Part shown: positions 1 to 55,869 of the stretch, one piece after another | Numbering within the stretch: position 1 is the stretch's first letter | How the letters are laid out: each line of letters starts with the position of its first letter | NCBI GenBank assembly: GCA_001775095.1 | Contig: MFCA01000029.1 | Coordinates: 153,173 to 217,172, forward strand | Origin: Candidatus Curtissbacteria bacterium RIFOXYA1_FULL_41_14 | Lineage (GTDB): Bacteria > Patescibacteriota > Microgenomatia > Curtissbacterales > GWA2-41-24 | Reading direction: 5' to 3' | Length of the DNA: 64,000 nucleotides | Translations under genes and position numbers: made by a program | Notes under the pieces: generated by a model | Databases searched by the model: none | What the model saw: only the letters and a program-made list of their open reading frames with translations | What the model was told of the DNA's origin: nothing

Positions 1-324
1 GAAATAAGTACCAATAACTATTAATACCCCAAATGTTGCCGTTGCGGTTCTTACAGCAAATACATTTAGTCCGAGTATTTTTACAAATAAAGCCGTGACA
101 TAAAATATTGCGGCATGCCTATAATCCTCGCCAACTCTGATGAAATCCGGTAAAAAATTACCAAACTCATCCCTCAGATTATTTGATAAAAAATAAGAAT
201 TAACACCTACTGTGACTTCATCAAAGAAAAAGCCCGCAGGTATTTGAGCAATTCTATAAAATCTTAAAAAGAAAGCTAAAAATACAATAGACAAAAAAAT
301 CAGGAAAGTTTGCTGAGTTTTCAT
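1..324 (-). CDS. Partial CDS (N-terminal ~108 aa, continues beyond window start) of another GT39/PMT-like membrane glycosyltransferase paralog
   Basis: Hand translation of minus strand from ATG at 324 is stop-free to position 1: MKTQQTFLIFLSIVFLAFFLRFYRIAQIPAGFFFDEVTVGVNSYFLSNNLRDEFGNFLP.... It shares the DE loop motif and TM pattern with the downstream paralogs. The ATGA start/stop overlap with 321..1925 matches the rest of the array. Confidence 0.5.
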   Translation of the reverse strand, partial: MKTQQTFLIFLSIVFLAFFLRFYRIAQIPAGFFFDEVTVGVNSYFLSNNLRDEFGNFLPDFIRVGEDYRHAAIFYVTALFVKILGLNVFAVRTATATFGVLIVIGTYF

Positions 325-1925
325 CTAGGGTGGCCGATTTTGATCGCCTCGGTACCATTTGGATAGTAAATCGTTTTAACTACTTCAAAGCCACCTGGAA
401 AATTTCCGACATCGGCAATGAAAAGTTCATTTGGATTTTCTGGTCTTTTAGCGTCAAAGTAATATTTGTCGAAATGGTATCTTGATCCTTCTTTCTGATA
501 AGTTTTAGGATCGTATTTTGTATTGAAAAGCCAAAAGACATAGGCTTGTTCTATGGAATGATCAATATTTATTTTTTCATATTGATTTTTAACCTTTTCT
601 GATTCAACAACAGCTTCCTTATAACCATATTGCCAAAAATCTGCTTTGTTAAATGGGTAGTGAGTAAAATAGTTGTGGATATAAAGGCCAACCGAAAGTA
701 TTATCCATCCAGTATAAGCACTAAGGAATATTTTTTTAAAGAAAAATTTGTTCGAAAAGATTTGAAAAAATGCATAGGCCGAAATAATCTCTAATGGAAT
801 TATCATAGGGAGAGACCGGTTGGCATGAGGATTTGGATGAGCAGGTATTGCGGCTAAAGGGCCAAGAAGAAGCCAAGCAAGAATGAAGGCCGATTCTTTA
901 TTTTTGTTTTTAACCAGAAAATAGATTCCAAATAAGAAAAGAGGTAGTTCGAAAAGATAAAGCATACCCATGCCTTCAATGTGATGTCTAAAATTGTCAT
1001 CACCTTTTGTAAATAAGAAGTTGAAATCAAAATGTGAAAGATAGTTACCAAACCACGTTTGGCCAATAACAAATCTCCTATTGTGGATATATTTCCCCAG
1101 TCTTAATCCTAAATCTTGGTCTTGTAAAATATATTTTATTGATTTTTCGGTATCTTCAAGTCTTGGTTTGCCTGTGGTAACTTCAAATCTTTGCAAGATA
1201 ACTTTAGGCGGAATCAATATTGCTAGCGGTAATCCAATCAGGATGGTGATGATAACAAAAACAGCTAGATATTTTTTAGAAACGGCCAGTATCTCTTTTC
1301 TATAAATAATGAAGGTTCCAGCAAAGAGTAGCGGGACGAATATTCTTTCAGAGTGATAGCTGTAAGCTGATATTCCAAGTAATATGGCACTTACAATTAG
1401 CCATTTTTTATCTTTAAGACTGTATAGAAAAGCGATGATTGATCCGACAGCAAAAAAAAGGCCGACAGTTGATTCGAAACCGATCCTTGAAACTTGCAGG
1501 TGCCAGGGAGAGATAGCCAACAGAAACATTGCGCAGAGCGCAATTGTTTGTGAATTTCCATTTACCATTTTCCATTTACTATTTTCAGTCTTATCAAAAA
1601 GTTTTTTGGCCAAAAAATATATTAATGGCACAGTGAGGAATCCGAAAAAAGCTGATGGAAGTCGAGCGGCAAAAGGGGTTAGTCCAAAAATTGCCACTGT
1701 GGGCACATCCAAATACATATAGAGAGGCGGTTTGTAGTCATCAAAGGAGCGATTGGTGATTGGTAAAAAGACTCCATATTCATCTCGGCCAGTTTTAAGA
1801 ATCGAGTAGGCATTGTAAGCATTACTGTTTTCGTCCCAATCGAGGCTTGGAGGAACAGTGCTTAATTTGTAAAACCTTAAAATAAAAGCTAAAACTAAAA
1901 TTGCCCAAAAGATTTTTTTTGTCAT
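321..1925 (-). CDS. GT-C fold membrane glycosyltransferase, GT39/PMT_2 (ArnT/PMT-like) family, paralog A1
   Basis: 534 aa. N-terminal TM, then the conserved loop 'DWDENSNAYNAYSILKTGRDEYGVFLP' (DE motif of PMT/ArnT-type polyprenol-phosphate-sugar dependent transferases), multiple TM helices and a soluble C-terminal domain. Four paralogs sit in tandem. Confidence 0.7.
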   Translation of the reverse strand: MTKKIFWAILVLAFILRFYKLSTVPPSLDWDENSNAYNAYSILKTGRDEYGVFLPITNRSFDDYKPPLYMYLDVPTVAIFGLTPFAARLPSAFFGFLTVPLIYFLAKKLFDKTENSKWKMVNGNSQTIALCAMFLLAISPWHLQVSRIGFESTVGLFFAVGSIIAFLYSLKDKKWLIVSAILLGISAYSYHSERIFVPLLFAGTFIIYRKEILAVSKKYLAVFVIITILIGLPLAILIPPKVILQRFEVTTGKPRLEDTEKSIKYILQDQDLGLRLGKYIHNRRFVIGQTWFGNYLSHFDFNFLFTKGDDNFRHHIEGMGMLYLFELPLFLFGIYFLVKNKNKESAFILAWLLLGPLAAIPAHPNPHANRSLPMIIPLEIISAYAFFQIFSNKFFFKKIFLSAYTGWIILSVGLYIHNYFTHYPFNKADFWQYGYKEAVVESEKVKNQYEKINIDHSIEQAYVFWLFNTKYDPKTYQKEGSRYHFDKYYFDAKRPENPNELFIADVGNFPGGFEVVKTIYYPNGTEAIKIGHPR

Positions 1926-3571: not shown

Positions 3572-5058
3572 TTAGAAACCACCTCATAAAACCTCATAAA
3601 ACTGTTACCTATCCCCTTTTGGTATTTGCCAATTAATTTAAGATGGGGATTACCTGGATCATCCGGAAGTTTCTGGTTTTCGTTGAAAATAAAAAATGTC
3701 TTTTTAACTTTGGCTGCGTCCAAGACTTGCTGTGGAATATCACTTACAGGCCAGAAACCATGTATCTCGATATTTTTTTCGCCGTAAAAGTAAATTAAAA
3801 GTGAATAAGGTAAAAGCCCAAAGGTACCTTCAGTCCCAACATAGACTGGCTGGCTTTTTGTTTCATGTTTTAGGATCGTCACAATTTCCTCTATACCATA
3901 ACCGGCTGGCCAGTCATTTAAATATTGACCAAGATCTGAATCGGCGATATTTGCCTTTGGAGGGTTTGTTAGCAATTTATACGAATTTATAGCTGGAAAA
4001 ATAAAAATGACTGCAAAAATCATCCACAAATATTTCGAGTAATTTTTCCACTTAATTAAATTTATGACACCAAAAGATACTAGGATAATGATATAAGGAA
4101 AATAAAAAAGCATAAAACGGGGGTATAGGACTTTATTAAAAATGCTTTCAGCCAGAAAGGGTGCCAAAACATAAACTGAAAGCAGAATAACTGGAAGATT
4201 TCGTTTAATTAAACCCCAGACAATAACCAAAATAGCAATTAAGGTCAGTGGCCAACCATTATATTGGACAAGCCATGAAATTAAGGCGTGAGGATTGCTG
4301 AGTAACTGGATAAATGGGTTATTTATAATTTCGCTCACGCTTCTAATAAATTCTGAGTTTTTGCGTGCAATCATGTAGAAAAGTGGGGATAGGCGCAAGG
4401 AGTTATAAATTACAAATGCCAATATTGCGGTAATTAAAGTCAAAAATAACCACCTTATAAATCTTTGAGACCTATTCTTTTTGCTAAAATCGAAAAGCAG
4501 TAAGGAGAATGGTAATAGATAAAGAAAGAAATTTGCGGATGATTTGGTAATCATACCAAGCCCAATGGCAAATCCGTTTAACAAGGCTGTATCAAGTTGT
4601 GGCGACTTTATCATTTTCGCGGAAAAGTAAACCGCCCAAATGCCTAACATGGTAAGCAATGAATCAAAAAGAGCCATCCGATCATAGAGAAGAGTGAAGG
4701 GCAAAATAATATAAAGCAAACAGGCCAGAATTGCTGTTTTTTTATCAAACAAGTATTTGGACAGGAAATAAATTCCGACTAGCGAGCCGAAACCGGCAAA
4801 AACTGAAACAAGTCTTGAGGCTACAAGTGGATCGGATATGAATTTCTGAAAAATCGCCGCAATCCAAATAAACAAAGGCTGTTTCCCATCCTCAAGAGAA
4901 CTAAATCTATTAGCAGGATCATGAAGTGCTACTTGAGCCCAATATGTATAAATAGCTTCATCAGTAAAAATTGGAATTATCTTTAGGTTTATTAGTCTGG
5001 TTATAAAATAGGTGCTAACCAAAACAAACCAAATTAAAAGCTGGAGTTTCGACTTCAT
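3568..5058 (-). CDS. GT-C membrane glycosyltransferase, ArnT/GT83-like variant of the GT39 family
   Basis: 496 aa. 'FTDEAIYTYWAQVALHDPANRF...DGKQPLFIW' resembles the ArnT DE...KPPL arrangement. 12 or more predicted TM segments. Confidence 0.55.
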   Translation of the reverse strand: MKSKLQLLIWFVLVSTYFITRLINLKIIPIFTDEAIYTYWAQVALHDPANRFSSLEDGKQPLFIWIAAIFQKFISDPLVASRLVSVFAGFGSLVGIYFLSKYLFDKKTAILACLLYIILPFTLLYDRMALFDSLLTMLGIWAVYFSAKMIKSPQLDTALLNGFAIGLGMITKSSANFFLYLLPFSLLLFDFSKKNRSQRFIRWLFLTLITAILAFVIYNSLRLSPLFYMIARKNSEFIRSVSEIINNPFIQLLSNPHALISWLVQYNGWPLTLIAILVIVWGLIKRNLPVILLSVYVLAPFLAESIFNKVLYPRFMLFYFPYIIILVSFGVINLIKWKNYSKYLWMIFAVIFIFPAINSYKLLTNPPKANIADSDLGQYLNDWPAGYGIEEIVTILKHETKSQPVYVGTEGTFGLLPYSLLIYFYGEKNIEIHGFWPVSDIPQQVLDAAKVKKTFFIFNENQKLPDDPGNPHLKLIGKYQKGIGNSFMRFYEVVSK

Positions 5059-6830
5059 AGAGTTTTCTCTCCAATATCAAAAACTGGTGATAGGGAAAGA
5101 TCATAAATAGTACGAAGTTTTTTGGCATCCTGGGGAAGTTGGCCTGATTGAACTACATACAAAGTCCTACCCACAACAGGAATTTGGCCGGGATTATCTG
5201 AGAATTTAAATTTATCAAAACCTTCAACATCGATGAAAAAGAACTGGTTTTTGGTGACTTGAGCACTTTGCCAATATTTTTTGGGGTCAAACTGCGTGTA
5301 CAAAAGGAAGTAAATATAAGGTCTCCCAAGAGCTTTGGTAACTATAATCTGGTCAACTTGATCATATAAAGGCTTGATATCCTGTACTGCTTGTTTATAA
5401 CCGTATTGCCAATCCCCCGAATAATTTATTGGCCAGTGGAGATAGTACATATGTAAATAGTACAGAAAGTTAAGAGTCAAAAGTCCCGCCGTCGCTAAAG
5501 CTATGGCGGACAAGAAAAAGGCAGGAGTAATTAGTAGTTTTTTATATCTGATCACTTGATAAAGACTATAGAGACCAATTGCAGAGAGTATCTGGTAAGT
5601 TGGCAGAATATGAATCATTCTTAGCGCATGAGGCGTTTCTCGTGCCGTCGCGGGTCCAAGAGGCGAAATAAGTAACCACCCAATAATTAAAAAGCGATAC
5701 TTTTGTTTAGTAGCAAACAAAAAGTAGATTCCTACAAGAATAAGCGCGAGATCTATATAATAAAGCTCTCCTGTATCTTGGACAGAGAGCCGCGGATTAA
5801 CATCACCTTTCGTAAAAAGAAAACGCGGATTGAACGCATCAAAATAATGAGTGAGATATTCATATGAATAGAAAAGGCGGCGATTATGAATAATATTTGA
5901 CCACCATGAAAAATTATCTTTTTGGCGATAATGAGTTGATTGATTTATAGGATCAAGATCTTTAAAAATTGTAACTTCATCGAATCGTAATCTGCCTTCG
6001 ATAGTTTGCGTGATAAAGACAAAAAGCGGCCAGAGCAGAAAGGCAGCAATCAAAGCTGTTGCCACGACAACTTTGGTTTGGGTAAGAATCTGTTTTCGAA
6101 ATTGGATCACCAGCACTATAAGTATGAAAGGAACAAACAAACGTTGCCCGGTAAAAGTATATATTCCGGCAAGAAATGAGAGCATCGATGGAAGAATCCA
6201 AATGGGGTGATCTTGGGCGAATTTTACAAAGAGGAAAATTCCTAAAACAGAGAAAAAGAGGCCTAGATTTGCTTCGAAAGCTCCCCGGGAAAACTGCAGG
6301 TGCCAAGGGGAGATTGCAAGGAAGAAAGCGGATAGAAGAGCAATAGCTTCTGGATTTCCAATTTCAAATTTCAAATTTCTAATTTCAAATGCAAGCAAGC
6401 CAGCTTGATTCACTCCCGGAGTGTGCCAGGGCTTAACTTTGCGCACTCCGGGAGTGTGCAAAGACTGCCACCCGCTACCATTCTCGAGAAGTTTTTTGGT
6501 TAGCGGATATGTCAGCAGGACAGTCAAGACCCCGAAAAATGCTGATGGAAACCTTATCGCAAATTCATTGAGGCCAAAGACGGCAATTGAGGGCACCGTT
6601 GCATAAATATATCCAGGAGGCTTGTAATCGCCAAAGGCCGCAAAATTTGTAAAAGGCAGAAATTTTCCATGTTCATCGCGAGCTGATTTTAAAATTGAAT
6701 AAGCGTTATAGCCAAGTGACGCTTCGTCCCAATAAAGAGAGGGTGGAACGGATGCAAGTTTATAAAATCTCAATACTGCGGCAATAAAAATGATAACAAC
6801 GAGTAAATAAAAATTTAAACTTCTTGGCAT
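5055..6830 (-). CDS. GT39/PMT_2-like membrane glycosyltransferase, paralog A4, carrying a ~45-aa repeat-derived loop insertion
   Basis: 591 aa. 'YWDEASLGYNAYSILKSARDEHGKFLPF'. Insertion 'GSGWQSLHTPGVRKVKPWHTPGVNQAGLLAFEIRNLKFEIGN' lies before the conserved 'EAIALLSAFFLAISPWH'. Confidence 0.7.
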   Translation of the reverse strand: MPRSLNFYLLVVIIFIAAVLRFYKLASVPPSLYWDEASLGYNAYSILKSARDEHGKFLPFTNFAAFGDYKPPGYIYATVPSIAVFGLNEFAIRFPSAFFGVLTVLLTYPLTKKLLENGSGWQSLHTPGVRKVKPWHTPGVNQAGLLAFEIRNLKFEIGNPEAIALLSAFFLAISPWHLQFSRGAFEANLGLFFSVLGIFLFVKFAQDHPIWILPSMLSFLAGIYTFTGQRLFVPFILIVLVIQFRKQILTQTKVVVATALIAAFLLWPLFVFITQTIEGRLRFDEVTIFKDLDPINQSTHYRQKDNFSWWSNIIHNRRLFYSYEYLTHYFDAFNPRFLFTKGDVNPRLSVQDTGELYYIDLALILVGIYFLFATKQKYRFLIIGWLLISPLGPATARETPHALRMIHILPTYQILSAIGLYSLYQVIRYKKLLITPAFFLSAIALATAGLLTLNFLYYLHMYYLHWPINYSGDWQYGYKQAVQDIKPLYDQVDQIIVTKALGRPYIYFLLYTQFDPKKYWQSAQVTKNQFFFIDVEGFDKFKFSDNPGQIPVVGRTLYVVQSGQLPQDAKKLRTIYDLSLSPVFDIGEKTL

Positions 6831-6867: not shown

Positions 6868-7452
6868 TTAGTTAAAAAAGATTTCATCGCAAATTAATTT
6901 CATTTGCCAATCGAAAATAAAATAGCATAAGGATAAAAATGCCAAGAGGACAAAAACTATTTTTGCCAATTTTGTTTTTAAAAAAAAATCGATTCCCCAA
7001 AGAGAAAAGCTATACCAGAATATTGCTAAGAGAAAGAAAGAAATTTTAGAATTTAGCGTAGAAATTGCAATCAATGAGGTAGTCAAGATAACTGCGAAAT
7101 GGAATTTAGGTAAATATCTTCTCTTTTCAAATACTTTCAAAAAGGCAGCGGTTGCTAAAATTAAGCCCACCGGTCCTAAAATAACCATTAACAACTTGGG
7201 TTGAAAAGCGGAAGCAAAATTTTTAGAAAATTCAAAAATGCCAACAGTCGCTTTATTGTGGAAAAACCGGGAAATATTTCTATCCATACCGAAATCGGTA
7301 TTGACGTTTGACTCGACACTAACTTTTATAGAGAGAGGATTAAAGTAAAAACTTGAAAACTGTTTGCATCCAGTTGTCTGCCAAATTCTAAAACCAAAAA
7401 GGACAACTAAAATGATGATAAAAAATATCCTGAATTTATTTGAAGGTTTCAT
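6868..7452 (-). CDS. Small polytopic membrane protein, hypothetical
   Basis: 194 aa with about 5 hydrophobic segments. It sits between two GT39 paralogs in the same orientation. No recognisable motif. Confidence 0.4.
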   Translation of the reverse strand: MKPSNKFRIFFIIILVVLFGFRIWQTTGCKQFSSFYFNPLSIKVSVESNVNTDFGMDRNISRFFHNKATVGIFEFSKNFASAFQPKLLMVILGPVGLILATAAFLKVFEKRRYLPKFHFAVILTTSLIAISTLNSKISFFLLAIFWYSFSLWGIDFFLKTKLAKIVFVLLAFLSLCYFIFDWQMKLICDEIFFN

Positions 7453-9196
7453 TTAAATCCCACAAAGAATATATATGTCTGCCTGTCGAATCATTAGCTG
7501 CTGCTAACCATTTACCATCAACCTTCTCCCACGAGGGTGCAACATAAAGAATTCTTACCTGCCGCCTGTCGGCAGTCAGGATCTGATCATATATATTGAC
7601 ATCATCCGGAATAAAGACATATTTATCAAAATAATCCCTGTTTCCCCCAGAATTTATGAATTTCTCAGGATCATATTTCCCGTAAAAAAGCAGGTAAATA
7701 TAAGGAACCTGATTGATATTTGTTATATAGACTTTATCAAAATGATTCTGATATTTTTGCACTTGAGTCACCATTTCTCTATAACCATCTTGCCAGTCGG
7801 CAGCGAATTTTTTAGGATAATGCACGAATAAAAGGTGCAAGTATGTCAAAAATGTATAGAAAATAACAAAAGTTAATAGCACTTTAATTATCAATAATTT
7901 TTTGTTTGAAAAGATCCAGTATGCTCCAAGCGCTGAGAAAAAGGCTAGAGGTACAGACATCTGTAAAGTTCTATAAGCATGAGGCGTCGGGTTGACAATC
8001 ATTGCCGGAATTGGCGCTAAAATCAGCCAGGATAACATAATTTTAAGAGATTTTCCGCTCAGCTTTTTTAGAGCGAAAATGGAACAGACCAATAAAATCC
8101 CATCAAACAGATAAATCTGGCCCATGTCGACCTGTGAGTGTCTACCTATCTGATCGCCTTTATAAAAAAGGAAGACGGGAGAAAAGTGGTCGATGTAATT
8201 ATTAAATGCCAGATAAACATTGTATAGGGAAAAAGACCAGTATTTAGACAGAAAGCGTAAAGGTGGCTTAGAATTTTGATCATAAAAAATTCTGGCTGAC
8301 TCGTATGTATCTTGACTAAAGGCTGACTGAGAACTTGCCCTTGATTGACCTTCTGGTGAAAATGTAAAAATTATAATCGGTAAAGCCAATGTTAATGCTA
8401 AAAGTACAGGTAGTACGAATTTTGTGACTATTTTTTTGACAGCCTTAAAATGAATTAGGAGAAGTACGATCACGAACAGAGGTGTGAAAATGCGATAAGC
8501 ATGATAAAAATACATAGATAAAGTAAAGAGCAAGAAGGCCAAAGTTAAAGTTATGACTTGCTTTCTCTCGATTCCCTTAAGAAACAGATAGAGACCAAAC
8601 GTCAAGAAGAAAAGGCCTGTGGTTGATTCAAATCCACCTCTGGAAAATTGAATGTGCCAAGGGGAGATGGCCAAAAAGAAGGCGGACAAAAGAGCAATTG
8701 GTTCGCTTTTGACAACTGACCACTGACCCTTCGGTGGACTCAGGGTCATCTCTTCGACCCTAAGCCCTTTGGGTCTGAGCTCTTCGAGTCCGAGTCTCAG
8801 AGTCGAGGACCTCACGGTCGAAGACTCGTCGAATGGATGACCACTGACATTTGACTTTTCGAAAAGTTTTTTGGTCAAAAGATAAATTAATGGCACAGTG
8901 AGGAATCCGAAGAAAGCTGATGGAAAACGAACGGCAAATTCATTGAGGCCAAAAATCGCAATAGAAGGAACCAGCAGATAGTGATAACCTGGCAATTTCC
9001 AATCACCGAAACTTTCAAAGAATAGTGGCAGAGTTACTCCGTGATGGTCCTTGCCCGTCTTGAGAATCGAATAAGCGTCATAACCAAACACTGCTTCATC
9101 CCAATAAAGTCCGGGCGGATTTATCCCGAGTTGATAAAATCTAAGGATGAAGGCTAGCAAAATAATAAGTACAAGCAGAGTTTTTCTAAGGTTCAT
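7436..9196 (-). CDS. GT39/PMT_2-like membrane glycosyltransferase, paralog A5, with ~55-aa GC-rich loop insertion
   Basis: 586 aa. 'YWDEAVFGYDAYSILKTGKDHHGVTLPLF'. Insertion 'NVSGHPFDESSTVRSSTLRLGLEELRPKGLRVEEMTLSPPKGQWSVVKSEP' lies at the same loop position as in 5055..6830. Confidence 0.7.
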   Translation of the reverse strand: MNLRKTLLVLIILLAFILRFYQLGINPPGLYWDEAVFGYDAYSILKTGKDHHGVTLPLFFESFGDWKLPGYHYLLVPSIAIFGLNEFAVRFPSAFFGFLTVPLIYLLTKKLFEKSNVSGHPFDESSTVRSSTLRLGLEELRPKGLRVEEMTLSPPKGQWSVVKSEPIALLSAFFLAISPWHIQFSRGGFESTTGLFFLTFGLYLFLKGIERKQVITLTLAFLLFTLSMYFYHAYRIFTPLFVIVLLLIHFKAVKKIVTKFVLPVLLALTLALPIIIFTFSPEGQSRASSQSAFSQDTYESARIFYDQNSKPPLRFLSKYWSFSLYNVYLAFNNYIDHFSPVFLFYKGDQIGRHSQVDMGQIYLFDGILLVCSIFALKKLSGKSLKIMLSWLILAPIPAMIVNPTPHAYRTLQMSVPLAFFSALGAYWIFSNKKLLIIKVLLTFVIFYTFLTYLHLLFVHYPKKFAADWQDGYREMVTQVQKYQNHFDKVYITNINQVPYIYLLFYGKYDPEKFINSGGNRDYFDKYVFIPDDVNIYDQILTADRRQVRILYVAPSWEKVDGKWLAAANDSTGRHIYSLWDLNETFK

Positions 9197-14494: not shown

Positions 14495-15401
14495 ATTTGT
14501 TTAGAACCTCCCTGTCGGACAATTGACAATTGACAATTGACAGCTGACAACTGACAACTAAGCTGGGAATCTGGGATAAAGCCCAGAGGAAGCCGATGAA
14601 GAAGGCCAAATCAAGAGTAGCTAGCGCTTTGACGAGATGATAAGGGAACCACGCTAGATGCTGGATAAGCCAAAGCAGGTCAGAAATATTTTTCCAGACA
14701 AAGAGAAATTGGTTTTTGTAGGAAACAGTTCTGATATAAAAATCCGATTTTGATTTTTTAATTGTGCCTTCCTGATGAAAGTGGTTTACTTTGGAATTTG
14801 GCTCAAATAGACACAAATACCCTTTTTTCCAAGCTTTGAATGAAAGATCGATGTCTTCCCAATAGAATGGAGCAAATATTTCATCAAACCCGCCGAGCTC
14901 TAAAAACTTTTCTTTGTCAAAAAGTCCGGACCCCCCAGAAACCCAGAGAGTCTCGCCAGATTCTGCCACCAGTGCAAAGTGTTCAAGGAAACCCTTTTTG
15001 AAGACTCCGCCTCCCCTTCCTCTTACCACAATTTTCCCTTTCTCGTGACTGTAATCTGCAAGACCAATGGCAAAAACTTTATCGTGAGCGAAGAGAGAAA
15101 GAGCTGGTTTCAAAAAGTCCGCTCGCGGCGCAACATCGGAATTTAGAAGTAGAACCAAATTGCCATCGGCTGCTTTTATTCCCGCATTCGCGGCATAAGC
15201 GAATCCCTTATTTTTAGGAAGTTGAATTAATTTTATCTTTTTAAAATTTTTATTGATAAAATTCACCGAATCATCTGCAGAAGCATCGTCAACGACAATT
15301 ATTTGACAATTGGGGCAATGTTTTATGACACTTGGCAAATTTTTTGCCAACAAATCACAACCATTGAAATTTGGAATAATTACTGATATTTTTTGTGCCA
15401 T
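14481..15401 (-). CDS. GT2 family glycosyltransferase with heptamer-repeat-encoded C-terminal tail
   Basis: 'ISVIIPNFNGCDLL...IIVVDDASADDS'. The C-terminal 'VVSCQLSIVNCQLSD' is encoded by the (ACAATTG)n repeat at 14518-14559. Confidence 0.7.
   Translation of the reverse strand: MAQKISVIIPNFNGCDLLAKNLPSVIKHCPNCQIIVVDDASADDSVNFINKNFKKIKLIQLPKNKGFAYAANAGIKAADGNLVLLLNSDVAPRADFLKPALSLFAHDKVFAIGLADYSHEKGKIVVRGRGGGVFKKGFLEHFALVAESGETLWVSGGSGLFDKEKFLELGGFDEIFAPFYWEDIDLSFKAWKKGYLCLFEPNSKVNHFHQEGTIKKSKSDFYIRTVSYKNQFLFVWKNISDLLWLIQHLAWFPYHLVKALATLDLAFFIGFLWALSQIPSLVVSCQLSIVNCQLSDREVLNKFAKP
14518..14559. repeat. Heptanucleotide tandem repeat (ACAATTG/ACAGCTG/ACAACTG) x6 inside the 3' end of a GT2 gene
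   Basis: gacaattgacaattgacaattgacagctgacaactgacaac. Confidence 0.8.
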
Positions 15402-17860
15402 AAATAAAGTGAAAAAAATATTGTTATAATAATGCCTACTATCGAAAGATAAAGACCATTATAGAATGATTGTGGCCTGAATTTAAATTCGGCTTCATGC
15501 TCTCCTCTGGGTATTAGAACGGACTGAAACATGTAGTTTATTCTTTTAATCTCATCTTTTTGGCCATCGATATAAACCTGCCAGCCGGGATAAAAAACGT
15601 TAGAGATAACAAGAGGGGCTTCGTCATCTGTTTTTGTTCTGAGTGTTAGCGACTGATCAGAGTACTTTATAAAGTTAACTGAGGCTTCGATTCTTTGCTT
15701 TGGGAATCCAAAATCCGACGAGACTGCAGTTGATCTAATATCAAAATGAGGGTCTAAAAGTTGTTCTAACTCTTGGTTTTGATCCCCAACTCTAATCACT
15801 TCTTTCACGAAAAACGCACGGGGTAGAGCATTGTCATTTCTAAAAATTTTAGTCTCCCCTTCTTGGAAGACTTTTTCAAAACCGGGCTCGGAAAGTTCGT
15901 CAAAAGTTGCTATGTAGCGCACATTCAGAAAATCGGCAATTTTTGAGAAGTACTTTTGGGGTGTTACTATTCTGTTAAAAGATCCGGCTTGGGTTACTTT
16001 TTGAGATTCCCAGGCAGTTACCAGCATTGCGTAATCTTTAAGATAAAGTGGATCATAACCATTAACAGCTTCAATCTGATAAACACTCGGTGTATTGCCA
16101 TTAAAGATTCTTCTGTCGGTGGTCATTATTCTAAAAGGTTTTTCCTGACTTGATAAGTATTTTGTAGTCTGTGTTTGAGGAAAAATCCAGGAAAGTTTTG
16201 AAAAAGGAGTGAACTTATAGCCGAATCTGAACAGTTCAAATAGCGTTAAGGCAAAAATCGCCAAAAGTAAAATAGTTTTTGGAATTTTGGCGATTTTTAA
16301 AATTATAAGTGCAAGCATTGAGAAAGAGATTAGTATTGGAAATATTAAATTTCTCAGGGCAACTTTAAATGAGTCAATATTTCCAGTAATAGGGAAAACA
16401 TCTTTAAAGATTAATGTGTAGGCTGCAAGAACAAATAGAACTGATAGAATTAAAACTGCCGGGATAATATGTTTCTTTTCGCGTTTCTTTTCGATAAAGT
16501 AATTTACTCCATAAGCGGACAAAACCGAAAGCGAGAATATAAAAAGAAATAGGATTCTTGAGGGTTGCATTGAAGAAATTAGAGGGAAATTAAAGATGTA
16601 GGGAATTTTTGAAATTGGATTTGCGATCGCAAAAACCAAGGAAAAAATTGCCAAAAATATAAAATAGATCGCCCTTTTTTCTCTTGACAAAAGTGCGAAG
16701 ATTACAAAAGCAAGAGGAACGATGCCGACAAAGCTGACGAATTCAGCCCAGTTCCAGATTCCCCAATAATTATAAGTTGCGGGATTACCAAAAAAATCCG
16801 GAGCCACAAGTTGAATCAAATTCTGAACTGGCAGAAACCAGTCAGTTCTTCCCGTAAAATACCCTTGATCAATTTCTCTTGCAGACAATCTGACAAACTC
16901 TAATGCCGGTAAAAGCTGAACCGCAGATATTAGAATACCTAAGGCCAATCCGCAAACTATAATCGTTAAGATTTCCAGCTTTTTTGATTGAAAAGTTTGA
17001 AAAATGACATAGAAGAACGTTGCGATAAACACGTAAAAGGCGGTCTGCCAATGACCTGACAGGATAGTTTGAGAGGCTGCAACTACTAAAACAATAAACC
17101 ACAGCGGGGATTGCCGAGTGAATAACTTATATTCGCTCGCAGAATGCCCTGTACTCTTGGTCCACGGATGAATGCTGGAGCGAATAGATACTTTCGAGGT
17201 ATATTCTGCTCGCTCATGTAAACTTTTAGGACAATATCGAGAGCTTTCAGCTCTCGAAAGTTTATTGACCGCAAGAAGAATTAAGGGAAGCCACATGGCA
17301 CAAGTAACGATAGTTCCCCAGGTCATCCAAGCAATAAAAAATCCGGTGAAGGGTAAAACAAGGGCTCCAAACATAGAGGCCATAATTGAAAGTTGCAGGC
17401 CTGTCTTGCCGGCAGGCAGGCTTCTCAAAAACAGGAACATAAAAAGTCCCGTTAATATCACAGGTAAAATTATTGCCAGCGTCCAAGCTATGTTAAACGG
17501 AAAGATGAAAAAGAGAAAATTAAATAACTGAAATGGCGATGACTGAATATTTGCTAAAAGTGGCTGACCCGAGAAACTATAAGGATTCCATAGAGGCAAA
17601 TTTCCTTCCTTTATATCATTCACTGCCAAATATCGCCATGGATATGTTTGCAAGACTGGATCAGTAATCAGAGGATTTTTAACCGGAAATTTACCCGCAT
17701 TGAAACCATCATATGTTTGGTCCCTCCAGGGATGATAGAGTCCCAAAAGGTCATCGGCACCAATTGGAACTTTTCCCATTAATAAATTTGGCAGGAAAAA
17801 AAGAAATACTATGATACAAATAACTATTGCACCAAAAGTATTAGAAGATAATTTTTTCAT
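15380..17860 (-). CDS. YfhO-like large polytopic membrane protein (putative GT-C glycosyltransferase), paralog Y1
   Basis: 826 aa. N-terminal 'LWNPYSFSGQPLLANIQSSPF' block shared with 37097..39529. Size and topology match YfhO-family proteins. This is family assignment by resemblance only. Confidence 0.5.
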   Translation of the reverse strand: MKKLSSNTFGAIVICIIVFLFFLPNLLMGKVPIGADDLLGLYHPWRDQTYDGFNAGKFPVKNPLITDPVLQTYPWRYLAVNDIKEGNLPLWNPYSFSGQPLLANIQSSPFQLFNFLFFIFPFNIAWTLAIILPVILTGLFMFLFLRSLPAGKTGLQLSIMASMFGALVLPFTGFFIAWMTWGTIVTCAMWLPLILLAVNKLSRAESSRYCPKSLHERAEYTSKVSIRSSIHPWTKSTGHSASEYKLFTRQSPLWFIVLVVAASQTILSGHWQTAFYVFIATFFYVIFQTFQSKKLEILTIIVCGLALGILISAVQLLPALEFVRLSAREIDQGYFTGRTDWFLPVQNLIQLVAPDFFGNPATYNYWGIWNWAEFVSFVGIVPLAFVIFALLSREKRAIYFIFLAIFSLVFAIANPISKIPYIFNFPLISSMQPSRILFLFIFSLSVLSAYGVNYFIEKKREKKHIIPAVLILSVLFVLAAYTLIFKDVFPITGNIDSFKVALRNLIFPILISFSMLALIILKIAKIPKTILLLAIFALTLFELFRFGYKFTPFSKLSWIFPQTQTTKYLSSQEKPFRIMTTDRRIFNGNTPSVYQIEAVNGYDPLYLKDYAMLVTAWESQKVTQAGSFNRIVTPQKYFSKIADFLNVRYIATFDELSEPGFEKVFQEGETKIFRNDNALPRAFFVKEVIRVGDQNQELEQLLDPHFDIRSTAVSSDFGFPKQRIEASVNFIKYSDQSLTLRTKTDDEAPLVISNVFYPGWQVYIDGQKDEIKRINYMFQSVLIPRGEHEAEFKFRPQSFYNGLYLSIVGIIITIFFSLYLWHKKYQ

Positions 17861-27096: not shown

Positions 27097-28811
27097 CTTA
27101 GCCGAAGGATATATATAATTATCATAGTAATTATTGTACCAATTGTTATTGTGTTTGCTTGCGTCCGAACAGGAGTGTTGGTAAATACTACCTCAATCTG
27201 ATGAGATCCTTCGGGAACATCTATCGTTATCAATTTATAAGGATTGTTGTCCTGAATTATTGTCTTTTGACCATCAATCTTGGCTTGCCAACCGGGAAAA
27301 TTGAATACGTTTACTCTGACTGGGGATGTTTTTTGAGCATTTGACGTGAACTGGATCTTAGAAGGACTGCCTTTGAGATTTTCTATCTTAGTTGTTCCTT
27401 GAATTAATCGAACTTTTTCTCTAGGAATTTGGCATGTCCCGATCCTTAAAAGGTTAGTATCGTTTGGACTTTTATAAAGGGGCAGACCGACAGGAACGTA
27501 CTCGAAAGACGACCTGGAAACATCCCAATTAATAATCTTTTTTGACGTTGCGATCTCATCTGTTAAATCCGGACGATATGTCTGGGGTTTAAAAAGTTTA
27601 AAGTTTGTGACGACAAGAAGGGTTATTAGAATTAAAGAGGCTATCAGTCTTAATATAGGTAGTTTTAAAAGATAGATGAAGGCACCAGCCAGAATTGATG
27701 AAAAAAGAGATGTGAATATTAAGAAGCGCCATGGGAATTGGAGATAACCAAGAGGGGTGACTAAATCCCAAATTAGTTTGGAGTAACTGGTGGTCATGAA
27801 AGCACTAAAGACAAACAAGAAAAAATTGAAAATTGAAAATTGAAAATTGAAAATTTCTTTTCGAGTATAGGACTTTAATTTGTTTCTAACTAAATAAATT
27901 ATGGCAAAAAATAAAGACATTACGGACAAGACTATGTGGAGCTTGCCGATTTTAAAGGAAATTCCATCAGCAAGCCCAGCGGCTGACCCGCCAAAACCCC
28001 AAGGCCAATTCCAAAGCTGCTGTGGAAAAACGAAATGAATATTGTAATTGGCAAGATTCACCAAAAGTAATTGGTCAACAATTGTAAATTTTTTCTCTAA
28101 AATTGCCGGGGCCCAGAAAAACGCCGACAGTCCTAAAGCCAAAACAGTAGACAGTAGACAGTGGGCAGTGGACAGAATTTTTGTATTCGATTTCCATATT
28201 AAAAATAATAAATAGAAAGGTAGGATGAGCATAAATGGTAGAAAGATAAGATTATGAGTGATCATTAAAAGTGCCAGAAATACAGCTGATAGATAGATAT
28301 AAATTGTTTTGTTCGTTTTAACTAATTTATAAAATGACCAAAGAATTACCGGGAGCCAAACGAAAGAAAAAGATTCTGCCAGTGCTCCTCTGATGTAAAC
28401 GTCTATAGCTCTATAAGGAACCAGTATGTAAAAAAACGCGCTGACAATTCCGGCATATCTGCCCCAAAACTCTTTTACCAAAATATACATCGCTAAACCC
28501 GAAGCAAATATTGAGGTAAAAAAAACAAGCTTTATTGAATCTATGAAACTAAAACCTATTAAATGGAATAATTCTCCAACCATATAAACTAGAGGCGGAT
28601 AAAATACAAATAAGGGATAACCAAAACCAAATCCCAGTTCGTCAACCCAACGAGGCGGAAATTGACCGGCTTTTAGGGCCTGATCAAAAAGAAGAAGACG
28701 GGCAATCTGCTGATCATCGTGGATTATAAAAAGTCCGGGTTTAAGAAGAGGTAATGACACCAGGATACTGAAGAAAAGAATTAGTAATATAGGAATCAAG
28801 CCTTTTTTCAT
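27078..28811 (-). CDS. Polytopic membrane protein family C (putative GT-C), paralog C1. Contains two internal heptamer repeat tracts.
   Basis: 577 aa. 'HDDQQIARLLLFDQALKAGQFPPRWVDELGFGFGYPLFVFYPPL...GFSFIDSIKL' is shared with 35496..37100. Confidence 0.5.
   Translation of the reverse strand: MKKGLIPILLILFFSILVSLPLLKPGLFIIHDDQQIARLLLFDQALKAGQFPPRWVDELGFGFGYPLFVFYPPLVYMVGELFHLIGFSFIDSIKLVFFTSIFASGLAMYILVKEFWGRYAGIVSAFFYILVPYRAIDVYIRGALAESFSFVWLPVILWSFYKLVKTNKTIYIYLSAVFLALLMITHNLIFLPFMLILPFYLLFLIWKSNTKILSTAHCLLSTVLALGLSAFFWAPAILEKKFTIVDQLLLVNLANYNIHFVFPQQLWNWPWGFGGSAAGLADGISFKIGKLHIVLSVMSLFFAIIYLVRNKLKSYTRKEIFNFQFSIFNFFLFVFSAFMTTSYSKLIWDLVTPLGYLQFPWRFLIFTSLFSSILAGAFIYLLKLPILRLIASLILITLLVVTNFKLFKPQTYRPDLTDEIATSKKIINWDVSRSSFEYVPVGLPLYKSPNDTNLLRIGTCQIPREKVRLIQGTTKIENLKGSPSKIQFTSNAQKTSPVRVNVFNFPGWQAKIDGQKTIIQDNNPYKLITIDVPEGSHQIEVVFTNTPVRTQANTITIGTIITMIIIYILRLRWRNIR
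27822..27856. repeat. (AAAATTG)x4.7 heptanucleotide tandem repeat inside CDS 27078..28811
   Basis: aaaattgaaaattgaaaattgaaaattgaaaattt encoding FNFQFSIFNFF. Confidence 0.85.
28145..28176. repeat. (CAGTRGR)x4.5 heptanucleotide tandem repeat inside CDS 27078..28811
   Basis: cagtagacagtagacagtgggcagtggacaga. Confidence 0.8.
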
Positions 28812-49280: not shown

Positions 49281-49366
49281 AAATTTCTAATTTCTAATTC
49301 CTAATTTCTAAATAATTCCCAAATCCCAATCTCCAAATTGTTTAGGTCAATTAGTAATTAGGGCAA
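49281..49366. repeat. Intergenic heptamer/decamer repeat block: (TAATTTC)x4 then AATTAGGTCA-like units
   Basis: aaatttctaatttctaattcctaatttctaaa...ggtcaattagtaattagggcaattaggtcaatt. Confidence 0.75.
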
Positions 49367-51544: not shown

Positions 51545-51650
51545 TAAATTCGAAATTCAAATATCGAAATCCAAAACAATTTCTAAATTCTAAATTCAAA
51601 TGATCAAAAACTTTTTTTTGAATTTTGAAAATTTGAAAATTTGAATTTGT
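51545..51650. repeat. Palindromic heptamer array: (AAATTCN)n arm facing a (GAAAATT)n arm
   Basis: aaattcgaaattcaaat...aatttctaaattctaaattcaaatgatcaaaaacttttttttgaattttgaaaatttgaaaatttgaatttg. Confidence 0.7.
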
Positions 51651-52628
51651 TTAGTGTTTCGTGCTTCGTGCTTCGAATTTTAATTTACTTCTTTCGTATT
51701 CAATTGTATCAGAAAGCGTTTTCAAAAGGGGTATTCTGGGTTGCCAACCGGTTTGTTTTTTAAACTTGTCAAAATTGCAGTAGATTTTTTCAATCTCAAC
51801 CGGGCGCAGTAAACTTGGATCTTTTTCGATTTTGATTTTGGCCGAGGAGAGTGAAAGTAACATGTCAAGTATCTTACGGATCTGAATCGATTTTCCACAA
51901 CCAATGTTGTAAACTTCACCGGGTATACCACTGTCAAGTGCTAAAAGATAGGCACGGACCATATCTCTTACGTCAGTGAAATCACGAAACGAGTTAAGAT
52001 TGCCTACTTTCATTGTCCCTTTACCTTGTTTCTCTAAAGAGACGATTCGTGAAGCAAATGCTGATACTACAAAATTAACAGACTGTCTGGGACCGATATG
52101 ATTGAAGGGTCTCACGCGTACTATATGAAGCTTATGATGCAGGAAAAATTGTAAACCCAGCATATCCTGAGCGACTTTCGAAACTGCATATGGAGAATTT
52201 GGCTTTAGGGGCGTATTTTCATCTGCCGGTAAATACTTTTCATCAATCTGGCCGTATTCGTCTGCCGAGCCGATAACCAGAATTTTTGCTTTTGATCTTA
52301 TTTTAACTAACGATTCTAAAAGATTGATTTGGCAGAAAATATTATTCTGTAGAGTTTCTTTGGGGTTTTTGAAGCTATCGGCCGGAGATGAAAAAGCGGC
52401 TAAATGAAAAACGTAATCTGGATTTATAAGTCTAACTTCTTTTTCTACTGCCTTTGTATTTTGTAAATCGCAGGCAACTACTTTTATTTGAGCTTTGATT
52501 TGCTTTAGATTACCTGTTGGATGACTTGAAAGAAAAAAACCGCAAACTGAAATTTTTTGAGAAAGTAACAATTCTGCCAGGTGACTGCCGGCAAACCCAG
52601 CAATACCGGTAATTAGGGCTTTTTTCAT
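51651..52628 (-). CDS. rmd: GDP-4-dehydro-6-deoxy-D-mannose reductase (Rmd-like)
   Basis: 'ALITGIAGFAGSHLAELL', 'SPYAVSKVAQD', 'RPFNHIGPRQ', 'YNIGCGKS' closely follow Rmd signatures. Adjacent to gmd. The 3' end carries a (GTGCTTC)x3 repeat at 51655-51676. Confidence 0.7.
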   Translation of the reverse strand: MKKALITGIAGFAGSHLAELLLSQKISVCGFFLSSHPTGNLKQIKAQIKVVACDLQNTKAVEKEVRLINPDYVFHLAAFSSPADSFKNPKETLQNNIFCQINLLESLVKIRSKAKILVIGSADEYGQIDEKYLPADENTPLKPNSPYAVSKVAQDMLGLQFFLHHKLHIVRVRPFNHIGPRQSVNFVVSAFASRIVSLEKQGKGTMKVGNLNSFRDFTDVRDMVRAYLLALDSGIPGEVYNIGCGKSIQIRKILDMLLSLSSAKIKIEKDPSLLRPVEIEKIYCNFDKFKKQTGWQPRIPLLKTLSDTIEYERSKLKFEARSTKH

Positions 52629-52717
52629 GGTTCGAATTCCTCACCATGACACTGAGCGAAAGTCGAATATGTCATGGTTCGAATTCCTCACCATGACACT
52701 GAGCGAAAGTCGAATGT
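52626..52717. repeat. Perfect-ish 46-bp tandem duplication (x2) between ugd and rmd
   Basis: catggttcgaattcctcaccatgacactgagcgaaagtcgaatrtgt x2 with one mismatch. Each unit contains an 8-bp inverted repeat (gtcatggt...accatgac). Confidence 0.85.
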
Positions 52718-52718
52718 G

Positions 52719-55729: not shown

Positions 55730-55869
55730 GAAAATTTACAATTTACAATTTTTAATTTTTATTGAATTTTCAATAATTTAATTTTCAAAATTGATAAGAA
55801 AATATTTTAGAAAAATATTTTGAAACATTTAGATTTCATTTCAAATTGAAAATTTCAAATTTCAAATTA
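55730..55869. repeat. AT-rich spacer built from AATTTAC/AATTTCA heptamers and their inverse
   Basis: gaaaatttacaatttacaattttt...tcaaattgaaaatttcaaatttcaaatt. Confidence 0.7.

What the first reader, a model, noticed from the sequence alone, without database searches (positions are those of the whole stretch)
8700..8850. Second in-frame loop insertion (copy 2) flanked by 11-bp direct repeats tgaccactgac, with a target-site-duplication-like footprint
ORF 7436..9196 has about 55 extra residues (NVSGHPFDESSTVRSSTLRLGLEELRPKGLRVEEMTLSPPKGQWSVVKSEP) at exactly the same loop position as the insertion in 5055..6830, but with unrelated sequence. The inserted DNA is conspicuously GC-rich and self-complementary (gagtccgagtctcagagtcgagg). 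It is bracketed by perfect 11-bp direct repeats at 8717-8727 and 8838-8848. Two independent insertions at the same permissive loop in neighbouring paralogs suggest that small mobile or repeat elements repeatedly target, or are tolerated at, this site.
Basis: seen in the sequence. Interest (0 to 1): 0.6.

Follow-up and report, generated by a model that had tools for sequence, protein, structure and literature searches.

The report
Dispersed hairpin repeat inside glycosyltransferase gene
A 114-bp GC-rich, hairpin-forming repeat element that also occurs in other ultra-small (CPR) bacteria has landed in frame inside a 7-bp tandem-repeat tract of a membrane glycosyltransferase gene, where it is read as a floppy 38-residue surface loop; the "11-bp target duplication" is mostly just the periodicity of that tract.

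Summary
The insert is real, and so are the two exact 11-bp repeats. The target-site-duplication reading does not hold.

- **Source and gene.** The window is from Candidatus Curtissbacteria (CPR/Microgenomates). ORF 7436..9196(-) is a GT-C/GT39 glycosyltransferase.
- **Size of the insertion.** Against empty-site relatives (L001, L002, P0082) the net gain is exactly 114 bp, or 38 aa.
- **Target.** The insertion lies in unit 3 of a five-unit heptamer array, (TGACNNN)5. That array already encoded an 11-aa loop extension.
- **The 11-bp repeats.** They are 121 bp apart. Deleting one repeat plus the insert frameshifts the gene, with a stop at codon 157. Deleting 114 bp restores a 548-aa ORF. Only TGAC (4-5 bp) is duplicated beyond the array's own periodicity.
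- **Not unique DNA.** A 23-mer from the insert matches exactly in Daviesbacteria, Levyibacteriota and other Patescibacteria MAGs and in metagenome contigs.
  - L012 holds a full-length relative with the same two junctions, again in a TTGTCA-type heptamer array, but intergenic.
  - L007 holds a copy in frame, in the opposite orientation, inside DNA polymerase III delta'.
- **Protein effect.** The inserted residues model as coil with pLDDT below 50 in an otherwise confident GT-C fold.

Verdict: this is a mosaic palindromic repeat resembling RPE, MITE and REP elements. It looks like a new variant of a known kind. What mobilises it is unknown.

The parts
7436..9196 (-). Host gene: GT-C fold / GT39 (PMT_2) membrane glycosyltransferase, 586 aa, identical to P0001 of Candidatus Curtissbacteria GW2011_GWA1_40
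   Evidence: Pfam PF13231, 31.3 bits against a cut-off of 26.1. The AF2 model has mean pLDDT 86.9 and pTM 0.87. Foldseek matches STT3/AglB/ArnT/PglB/Pmt at E 6e-8 to 1e-3.
8728..8837 (-). Body of the inserted element (110 bp, 57% GC). With one flanking TGAC it makes the 114-bp / 38-codon net insertion. It is translated as GHPFDESSTVRSSTLRLGLEELRPKGLRVEEMTLSPPK(GQW).
   Evidence: Absent from L001, L002 and P0082. It is 95.7% identical over 70 nt and 94% over 34 nt to the intergenic element in L012, and 100% over 51 nt to L009. Residues 116-160 are coil, with sub-50 pLDDT segments at 116-132, 136-138 and 152-160.
8780..8810 (-). Invariant 31-nt core, GTCCTCGACTCTGAGACTCGGACTCGAAGAG. It is an imperfect palindrome (hairpin TCGA-C-TCTGA/GAC/TCGGA-C-TCGA) and carries three GACTC sites.
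   Evidence: Exact 23-mer matches in 9 outside loci. The identity extends to 31 nt in most copies. Hairpin. Single copy in the window even with 3 mismatches allowed.
8736..8767 (-). 12-bp stem hairpin near the element's 3' (sense) end: GGGCTTAGGGTC / GACCCTGAGTCC, with two G-U pairs on the sense RNA strand
   Evidence: Inverted repeat I3; minimum-free-energy structures.
8724..8727 (.). TGAC tetranucleotide abutting one end of the element. It is either the target, a 4-bp duplication, or microhomology.
   Evidence: Same junction in the window and L012: TGAC|CCTTCG...GGATGAC|(CAC or AAT).
8838..8841 (.). Second TGAC at the other junction. It is also part of a 15-nt inverted repeat (GGTCATCCATTCGAC on the sense strand) with an internal arm, so it may belong to the element.
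   Evidence: Inverted repeat I2, arms 8744-8758 / 8828-8842, 87% complementary.
8710..8727 (-). Downstream (sense) half of the split heptamer array, TGACAAC TGACCAC TGAC|.
   Evidence: TRF period 7; direct repeat D1; comparison with the 5-unit empty array TAACAAC TGATAAC TGAATAC TGACATT TGACTTT in L001.
8838..8858 (-). Upstream (sense) half of the split heptamer array, (TGAC)CAC TGACATT TGACTTT.

Best explanation
The segment is one copy of a non-coding, non-autonomous, GC-rich mosaic palindromic repeat family. The family is dispersed among Microgenomates (CPR) genomes and is built around an invariant 31-nt hairpin core.

In this Curtissbacteria lineage a 114-bp copy integrated next to a TGAC. 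The site is the third unit of a pre-existing five-unit heptamer array (TGACNNN on the + strand, NNNGTCA on the sense strand). That array already encoded an 11-residue extension of a loop of a GT39 glycosyltransferase, inferred to lie on the extracytoplasmic side.

The gene stays intact because 114 is 38 codons and the GC-rich element has no stop codon in that frame. The element is simply translated as a disordered loop.

The 11-bp 'direct repeats' are the two halves of the split array plus the shared TGAC.

- **Shown:** the insertion relative to empty sites, family membership, the shared junctions, the in-frame status, and the predicted disorder.
- **Inferred:** that the element is mobile (copy-and-insert) rather than merely recombined, that heptamer arrays act as preferred landing sites, that the peptide has no function of its own, and which side of the membrane the loop faces.
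- **Unknown:** the mobilising enzyme.
For: **Empty sites**
- L001 and L002 DNA, and the P0082 protein, differ from the window by a single 38-aa / 114-bp gap. The residues around the gap are largely or wholly identical: 2 differences in about 37 aa before it and 34 identical aa after it.
- Deleting 114 bp gives a 548-aa intact ORF with loop EKSNVSGQWSVVKSEP. This is the same length as EKSNVKCQLSVVKSEP in P0082.

**Family**
- The 23-mer has exact hits in 5 genome loci and 4 metagenome loci. About 0.02 chance hits are expected in 596 Gb (my estimate).
- The alignment shows an invariant core with mosaic flanks and tandem core duplications in L006 and L008.
- L012 has both termini and both junctions of the window copy, inside a (TTGTCAN)5 array between a NifU-like gene and an ORF I read by eye as a ferredoxin (not scanned).

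**Second intragenic copy**
- The L007 copy lies in frame and antisense inside HolB (PF13177). Its orthologs are 25-30 aa shorter.

**No selected peptide**
- The peptide is found in no other protein among 1.84 billion representatives.
- A six-frame search of 5.8 billion proteins also found only this gene.

**Tolerated loop**
- Residues 116-160 are coil with sub-50 pLDDT segments at 116-132, 136-138 and 152-160, between helices 86-117 and 164-176. The rest of the model is confident.

**Hot spot**
- Orthologs L015 and L018 have other hairpins flanked by other heptamer arrays at the same loop. L016 and L017 have long inverted-repeat inserts there.
Against: - Only two full-length copies (window, L012) define the ends, so the target, any duplication and the terminal repeats rest on n = 2.
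- Copy number in this genome looks low: one copy in about 74 kb examined.
- No transposase or RAYT-like gene was looked for or seen.
- Terminal inverted repeats are imperfect: 7-8 bp at the tips, 13/15 for a subterminal pair.
- The outside loci were found by an exact 23-mer, so 'invariance' of the core is partly a selection effect.
- Most other copies (L007-L011, L013, L014) are not in obvious heptamer arrays, so the landing-pad idea applies only to the full-length subtype.
- One scaffold (L003) shows a different right half with an N gap. This is unexplained.
Confidence: 0.7

Rival explanations
1. There is no transposition. The element spreads between dispersed heptamer arrays by homologous or microhomology-mediated recombination (gene conversion), using the TTGTCA/TGAC repeats on both sides as homology arms. 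The flanking 'repeats' are those arms.
For: - Both full-length copies lie inside TTGTCA-type arrays.
- Similar empty arrays occur elsewhere in the same genome, at window 14518-14557 and L019 18264-18295.
- The junction overlap is only 4-5 nt and lies inside a repeat.
Against: - The arrays flanking the two copies differ in unit sequence (GTCAGTG versus GTCAATT/CCTTTGT), leaving little homology beyond GTCA.
- Other family copies sit outside arrays.
- The near-identical core in different candidate phyla needs horizontal spread in any case.
Confidence: 0.15
2. The loop sequence was generated locally, by slippage, fold-back synthesis or template switching in the heptamer array. It is not related to DNA elsewhere.
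For: - No second copy in the window.
- The first pattern scans found nothing.
- Inserts at this loop in orthologs are all different.
Against: Exact 23-51-nt matches and 94-96% full-length similarity at unrelated loci in other genomes.
Confidence: 0.02
3. The insert is a selected functional addition: a new surface-loop peptide of the glycosyltransferase, or a structured mRNA element such as a translational pause or regulatory hairpin.
For: - The frame is kept open.
- The sense-strand fold has z = -3.4, and the 12-bp stem uses G-U pairs that exist only on the sense RNA.
- The loop is inferred to face the outside, near the conserved SPWH/SR..FE region (inference).
Against: - No homologous peptide anywhere.
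- pLDDT below 50.
- The HolB copy is read on the other strand and gives a different peptide.
- No Rfam family matches at E <= 10.
- The alignment gives no covariation, because the paired core is invariant.
- Three of six frames are nearly or fully open simply because the element is GC-rich.
Confidence: 0.07
4. Classical cut-and-paste MITE insertion with an 11-bp target-site duplication.
For: Perfect 11-bp direct repeats bracket the GC-rich DNA.
Against: - The spacing of 121 bp is out of frame. Precise removal gives a stop at codon 157.
- Empty sites have five heptamer units, not four.
- The L012 copy shares only GTCA at its junctions.
Confidence: 0.03
5. Assembly or scaffolding artefact (chimeric GC-rich reads joined at a repeat).
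For: One scaffold (L003) has an N gap and divergent sequence inside the insert.
Against: Identical sequence in independent NCBI, JGI, ENA and Logan assemblies: 67 contigs, with L004 and L019 showing 0 mismatches over the gene.
Confidence: 0.01

Closest known systems
Rickettsia palindromic elements (RPE; Ogata et al. 2000, as summarised in PMC10969869)
   Same: - Palindromic repeats of about 100-150 bp.
- Inserted in frame into unrelated, still-functional protein genes of a reduced-genome bacterium.
- The extra peptide sits in a tolerated surface region.
- Copies also occur between genes.
   Different: - No sequence relation was tested or is expected, and the phylum is different.
- RPEs encode a conserved peptide per family. 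Here the two intragenic copies are read on opposite strands.
- Copy number here appears low.
- RPEs are not reported to associate with 7-bp tandem arrays, to my knowledge.
Cyanobacterial small dispersed repeats (SDR) embedded in heptameric tandem repeats (STRR). Elhai et al. 2008, Genome Res 18:1484, cited in PMC5861425; details are from my memory because the paper is not held.
   Same: - Hairpin-forming small repeats found inside tandem heptamer arrays.
- Nested or mosaic arrangements.
- Presence/absence differences between relatives.
- No known transposase.
   Different: - SDRs are 21-27 nt, against about 110-135 nt here with a 31-nt core.
- Cyanobacteria rather than CPR.
- SDRs are not known for in-frame insertion in conserved enzymes.
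REP / BIME / REPIN elements mobilised by RAYT (HUH) transposases (PMC3116915, PMC3337134, PMC3733652)
   Same: - A short imperfect palindrome (31-nt core) as the basic module.
- Modules combined and tandemly duplicated into mosaics.
- Mostly intergenic copies.
   Different: - No GTAG or CGTC tag next to the palindrome.
- No RAYT seen.
- No high copy number shown.
- This copy is intragenic.
MITEs (PMC10969869)
   Same: About 110-135 bp, non-coding, AT/GC contrast with the host, imperfect terminal inverted repeats, and a possible short (4-bp) duplication.
   Different: No parent IS identified. The terminal repeats are weak. The duplication cannot be separated from the periodicity of the array.

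Membership tests
Rickettsia palindromic element-like (in-frame intragenic palindromic repeat) | Repeat of about 100-150 bp with strong dyad symmetry | tested here: met
   110-114 bp. Sense-strand fold z = -3.4. Three inverted-repeat pairs.
Rickettsia palindromic element-like (in-frame intragenic palindromic repeat) | Inserted in frame in otherwise conserved genes, absent from orthologs | tested here: met
   GT39 here. A second copy lies in HolB of a Levyibacteriota MAG.
Rickettsia palindromic element-like (in-frame intragenic palindromic repeat) | Tens of copies per genome; family-specific conserved peptide | tested here: not met
   One copy in about 74 kb of this genome. At least 3 cores in one Levyibacteriota MAG. 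The two intragenic copies give different peptides. No peptide homologs found.
MITE | Terminal inverted repeats | tested here: inconclusive
   CCTTCGA/TCGAAGG tips of 7-8 bp and a 13/15 subterminal pair. Only two full-length copies.
MITE | Fixed-length target-site duplication | tested here: inconclusive
   The 11-bp duplication is rejected. TGAC (4 bp) is shared at both junctions in both copies, but it lies in a repeat and in an inverted-repeat arm.
MITE | Related autonomous IS with matching ends | not tested
   No scan for transposases was made, and the collection scans were exhausted.
REP/REPIN-RAYT | 20-40-nt imperfect palindrome with GTAG/CGTC tag, hundreds of extragenic copies, cognate RAYT gene | tested here: not met
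   The palindrome is present. There is no GTAG/CGTC tag in the core (read from the sequence), this copy is intragenic, and copy number is low. RAYT was not searched for.
Cyanobacterial SDR-in-STRR | Small hairpin repeat embedded in tandem heptamers | tested here: met
   The window copy and the L012 copy are both inside period-7 arrays. Size (21-27 nt) and taxon do not match, so this is an analogy and not membership.
Phase-variable simple-sequence contingency locus | Repeat-number polymorphism that switches the reading frame | tested here: inconclusive
   The 7-bp units could frameshift, but all assemblies of this allele have the same array. Only the L003 scaffold has a split gene, and it contains an N gap.
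GT-C / GT39 glycosyltransferase (host gene) | PMT_2 domain, multi-TM GT-C fold, D-E motif in the first outer loop | tested here: met
   PF13231 above its cut-off. Foldseek hits to STT3/ArnT/PglB/Pmt. D33 and E34 are invariant.

The most novel reading that the evidence does not exclude
Microgenomates (CPR) genomes may carry a previously undescribed, horizontally spreading two-part repeat system. One part is the period-7 tandem arrays, which would act as landing pads or be the accumulated footprints. The other part is a set of modular GC-rich hairpin elements built around an invariant 31-nt, GANTC-rich core, which integrate next to TGAC. Together these would repeatedly remodel exposed loops of envelope glycosyltransferases and even of replication proteins such as HolB. 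That would make the system a CPR counterpart of the cyanobacterial STRR/SDR system and of Rickettsia RPEs, possibly driven by a single-strand (HUH-type) transposase.
Probability: 0.25. Interest if true: 0.7.

Novelty: new variant of a known kind. Interest (0 to 1): 0.52.

Why it matters
**Why it matters**
- CPR/Patescibacteria genomes are small and are usually described as poor in repeats.
- A cross-lineage hairpin repeat family that can sit in frame inside conserved enzymes would be a source of protein-loop novelty in these organisms.
- It would also be a source of annotation noise: inflated ORFs, weakened Pfam hits, and false N-termini that start inside heptamer arrays.
- The invariant core and its preference for 7-bp arrays offer a handle on an unknown mobilisation mechanism.
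- The same features give a parallel to the long-unexplained cyanobacterial heptamer repeats.

**Limits**
- The single locus itself is an ordinary tolerated insertion.
- No function is implied for the glycosyltransferase.

Tried and rejected
- **Other copies in the window.** BLASTN-short of the insert and of five other inserts against the window found no second copy. An nhmmer family profile over the window plus 115 kb of loci found nothing new.
- **First pattern scans.** The first scans used the 12-bp-stem hairpin and a 25-mer. They found nothing, not even the source genome. This shows that those collections lack this genome and that negatives there are weak.
- **Six-frame peptide search.** A search of 5.8 billion proteins and HMMER against 1.84 billion representatives returned only the same gene, plus two junk tandem-repeat ORFs. 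Matches shorter than about 25 aa would be missed. The 12-aa match in HolB was missed, for example.
- **Rfam.** No hits at gathering threshold over the whole window. At E <= 10 on 8650-8900 there were only noise hits. No tRNA or tmRNA.
- **Viral, phage and plasmid collections.** No match.
- **RNAalifold on 8 copies.** The core hairpin is invariant, so it gives no covariation evidence for or against an RNA structure.
- **Ribosomal bypass or hop between the 11-mers.** Rejected, because landing at the second repeat would be out of frame (sequence reasoning).
- **GANTC clustering.** The element has 5 sites and is the densest cluster in the window, but the genome is neither depleted nor enriched in GANTC. 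No conclusion was drawn.
- **Elhai 2008.** The paper could not be read.
- **PDB by sequence.** No hit.
Full report
**What the window is**

ORF 7436..9196(-) is 100% identical to a protein of Candidatus Curtissbacteria bacterium GW2011_GWA1_40 (CPR/Microgenomates). That protein is seen on 67 contigs from NCBI, JGI, ENA and Logan.

It carries PF13231 (PMT_2) above the curated cut-off. Its AlphaFold model has mean pLDDT 86.9 and pTM 0.87. The model matches GT-C glycosyltransferases (STT3, AglB, ArnT, PglB, Pmt).

It is one of five tandem GT39 paralogs in a glycosylation island.

**Checking the observation**

- TGACCACTGAC occurs exactly twice in 64 kb, at 8717-8727 and 8838-8848.
- The 110 bp between the repeats are 57% GC, against 37.6% for the rest of the gene.
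- The region folds better than shuffles: z = -3.4 on the sense strand and -2.5 on the other.
- It holds three inverted-repeat pairs, including a 12-bp stem.
- The paralog alignment confirms extra residues at the same loop as in 5055..6830. A short extra stretch is also present in 321..1925.
- The same sequence is present without a mismatch in independent assemblies L004 and L019. It is therefore not an artefact.

**What the empty site looks like**

- Syntenic relatives L001 and L002 (about 65% aa identity) have EKSNVSIQLSVVKSES and EKSDVSNQLSVVKSES at this position.
- A closer relative, P0082, is 79% identical outside the gap. It has EKSNVKCQLSVVKSEP, and the only gap in the pairwise alignment is 38 residues.
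- At the DNA level the empty site is a five-unit heptamer array: TAACAAC TGATAAC TGAATAC TGACATT TGACTTT on the window's + strand orientation.
- The window reads TGACAAC TGACCAC TGAC[114 bp]CAC TGACATT TGACTTT.
- The loop expansion therefore has two layers. The older layer is an array-encoded 11-12 aa. The younger layer is a lineage-specific 114-bp / 38-aa insertion.

**The 11-bp repeat**

- The two 11-mers are 121 bp apart, and 121 is not a multiple of 3.
- Removing one repeat plus the insert gives a frameshift and a stop at codon 157.
- Removing 114 bp gives an intact 548-aa ORF whose loop has the same length as the empty sites.
- Seven of the 11 nt are the period of the array. The flanks in fact align over 24 nt at 75% identity.
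- What remains is a TGAC (GGTCA on the sense strand) at both junctions.
- That TGAC could be a 4-bp duplication, the target of an element that inserts 3' of TGAC, or microhomology.
- It is also part of a 15-nt inverted repeat with an internal arm (I2), so it may belong to the element itself.

**The insert is a member of a dispersed family**

- Early scans with the hairpin near the sense 3' end found nothing. They did not even find the source genome, so those collections are incomplete for this organism.
- A 23-mer from the middle (CTCGACTCTGAGACTCGGACTCG) then gave exact matches in 5 loci of GTDB genomes.
  - These come from a Levyibacteriota MAG (two contigs, one with a tandem pair), a Daviesbacteria MAG and a Patescibacteria MAG.
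  - A fifth contig is labelled Gammaproteobacteria but is almost identical to the Daviesbacteria one.
- The same 23-mer matched in 4 JGI metagenome contigs.
- I estimate about 0.02 chance hits for a 23-mer in 596 Gb.
- Aligned, the copies share an invariant 31-nt core, GTCCTCGACTCTGAGACTCGGACTCGAAGAG, which is an imperfect palindrome. The flanking modules are variable and themselves hairpin-forming. The core is tandemly duplicated in L006 and L008.
- L012 comes from the same JGI sample as L004. It holds a full-length relative that is 95.7% identical over 70 nt and 94% over 34 nt at the two ends, with a different middle module.
- L012 has the same junctions as the window, TGAC|CCTTCG...GGGATGAC|AAT. 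It lies inside a (TTGTCAN)5 array in the spacer between a NifU-like gene and an ORF I read by eye as a ferredoxin.
- L007 holds a copy in frame, on the opposite strand, inside DNA polymerase III delta' (PF13177). Its orthologs are 215-230 aa against 247-250 aa, and that loop is itself variable.
- Two metagenome contigs with the core have 47-50% GC, so the core may reach beyond CPR.

**What it does to the protein**

- Residues 116-160 are coil with segments of pLDDT below 50. They lie between helix 86-117 and helix 164-176, and the remainder of the model is confident.
- By helix parity from the N-terminus and the position of the invariant D33-E34 loop, I infer that the loop faces the outside. 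This is inference only.
- The peptide has no homolog in 1.84 billion representative proteins or in a six-frame search of 5.8 billion.
- Three of the element's six frames are open or nearly so because it is GC-rich. This makes in-frame tolerance easy.

**The loop is a hot spot**

- Of 37 sampled orthologs (sampling enriched for long ones), 24 have a 13-residue loop. The other 13 have unrelated expansions of 20-63 residues.
- At the DNA level, L015 has a CCCCGC...GCGGGG hairpin flanked by TCACTCA heptamers.
- L018 has an insert flanked by CAGNTAC heptamers.
- L005 has ATTTTCA heptamers.
- L016 and L017 have long inverted-repeat inserts.
- In the window, the same loop of paralog 5055..6830 carries (TTGAAAT)5 plus a double palindrome. 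Paralog 321..1925 carries (GGTAAAT)4.6.
- Period-7 arrays account for 10 of the 13 TRF rows with three or more copies in the window.
- Against the syntenic L002, the window has several further GC-rich in-frame inserts.

**Mechanism**

- The best-supported reading is a non-autonomous mosaic palindromic element. It integrated at TGAC in a heptamer array and is translated as a passenger loop.
- Mobility is inferred from four observations:
  - presence or absence at orthologous sites;
  - copies at unrelated loci;
  - shared junctions;
  - near-identity across lineages.
- No enzyme was identified.
- Recombination between arrays is the main rival.
- Local de novo origin, an 11-bp duplication, a selected peptide or RNA element, and an assembly artefact are each contradicted or unsupported by the evidence above.

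**Comparison and novelty**

- The behaviour matches Rickettsia palindromic elements (in-frame, tolerated; PMC10969869).
- The context matches cyanobacterial small dispersed repeats inside heptamer arrays (Elhai 2008, from memory; cited in PMC5861425).
- The modular palindromes resemble REP/BIME/REPIN elements (PMC3116915, PMC3733652).
- It fails or cannot be tested on defining features of each family: copy number, a family-specific peptide, the GTAG/CGTC tag, an associated RAYT or IS, and size.
- It has no Rfam, phage or plasmid match.
- Literature searches found no description of such elements in CPR/Patescibacteria.
- I rate it a new variant of a known kind, of moderate interest.

Noticed in passing
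window 52625-52722: Intergenic 47-bp unit repeated 2.1 times at 98% identity. It contains GGTTCGAATTCC, which looks like a tRNA T-arm, yet ARAGORN finds no tRNA anywhere in the 64 kb.
   Followed up: no
window 1554-1586, 6354-6390, 14518-14557, 27822-27855, 28144-28175, 49282-49311, 51546-51675, 55733-55868; L019 18264-18295: Period-7 tandem arrays dominate the tandem repeats of this genome, both in coding regions and between genes. All the coding ones here lie in envelope glycosyltransferase-type genes. Many annotated N-termini of orthologs (NFKFQIS...) start inside such arrays.
   Followed up: partly
window 17375-17443, 17105-17287, 7544-7615, 5424-5537: Other in-frame inserts relative to the syntenic L002.
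- LPAGKTG, 71% GC, in the YfhO-like gene.
- A 45-aa insert in the same gene.
- A CTGCCG..CGGCAG hairpin that gives QILTADRRQV near the C-terminus of the GT39 gene.
- An SAIALATAGL module that also appears at a different site in orthologs P0004, P0008, P0011, P0032 and P0053.
   Followed up: partly
L003 2900-3020 (ENA ANAN16-1 SAMN03842440 scaffold_39467): This scaffold has the same flanks as the window, but the element diverges after GCTCAGACC. It runs into the family-typical CCGAATCGGTTC module, then GGGATGA...N10...TCATCCC, and the gene is split into 174 + 429 aa. It could be a nested insertion, a strain variant or a scaffolding error.
   Followed up: partly
L007 2766-3518 and orthologs P0130-P0195: DNA polymerase III delta' of Levyibacteria and relatives has its own hypervariable loop. 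It is filled with different GC-rich-looking peptides, such as HPERSRVRRGEVEG and SFWGAPLSGATPESP..RDSGQARMT. This suggests several hairpin-repeat families that insert in frame in CPR proteins.
   Followed up: no
window 8724-8837: The element carries five GANTC sites (3 GAGTC, 2 GACTC on the + strand) and five TCGA sites. It is the densest GANTC cluster in the window. The genome as a whole is not depleted in GANTC.
   Followed up: partly
window 8855-8866: A perfect 12-bp palindrome, CTTTTCGAAAAG, lies directly next to the heptamer array and encodes the conserved LFEK. Paralog 5055..6830 has TTCTCGAGAA at the same place.
   Followed up: no
L011, L013: The invariant core also occurs in contigs of 47-50% GC. 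One (L013) lies between ribosomal protein genes L16 and L29 (my reading of the ORFs, not scanned). The other (L011) is on the same contig as, about 1.2 kb from, an OmpA-family gene. The core may therefore not be confined to CPR.
   Followed up: no
L004 (P0126) versus P0082 and P0019: P0126 combines an N-terminus like P0082 (the empty-site lineage) with the window-type insert and C-terminus. This indicates either recombination between related Curtissbacteria or a chimeric assembly.
   Followed up: no
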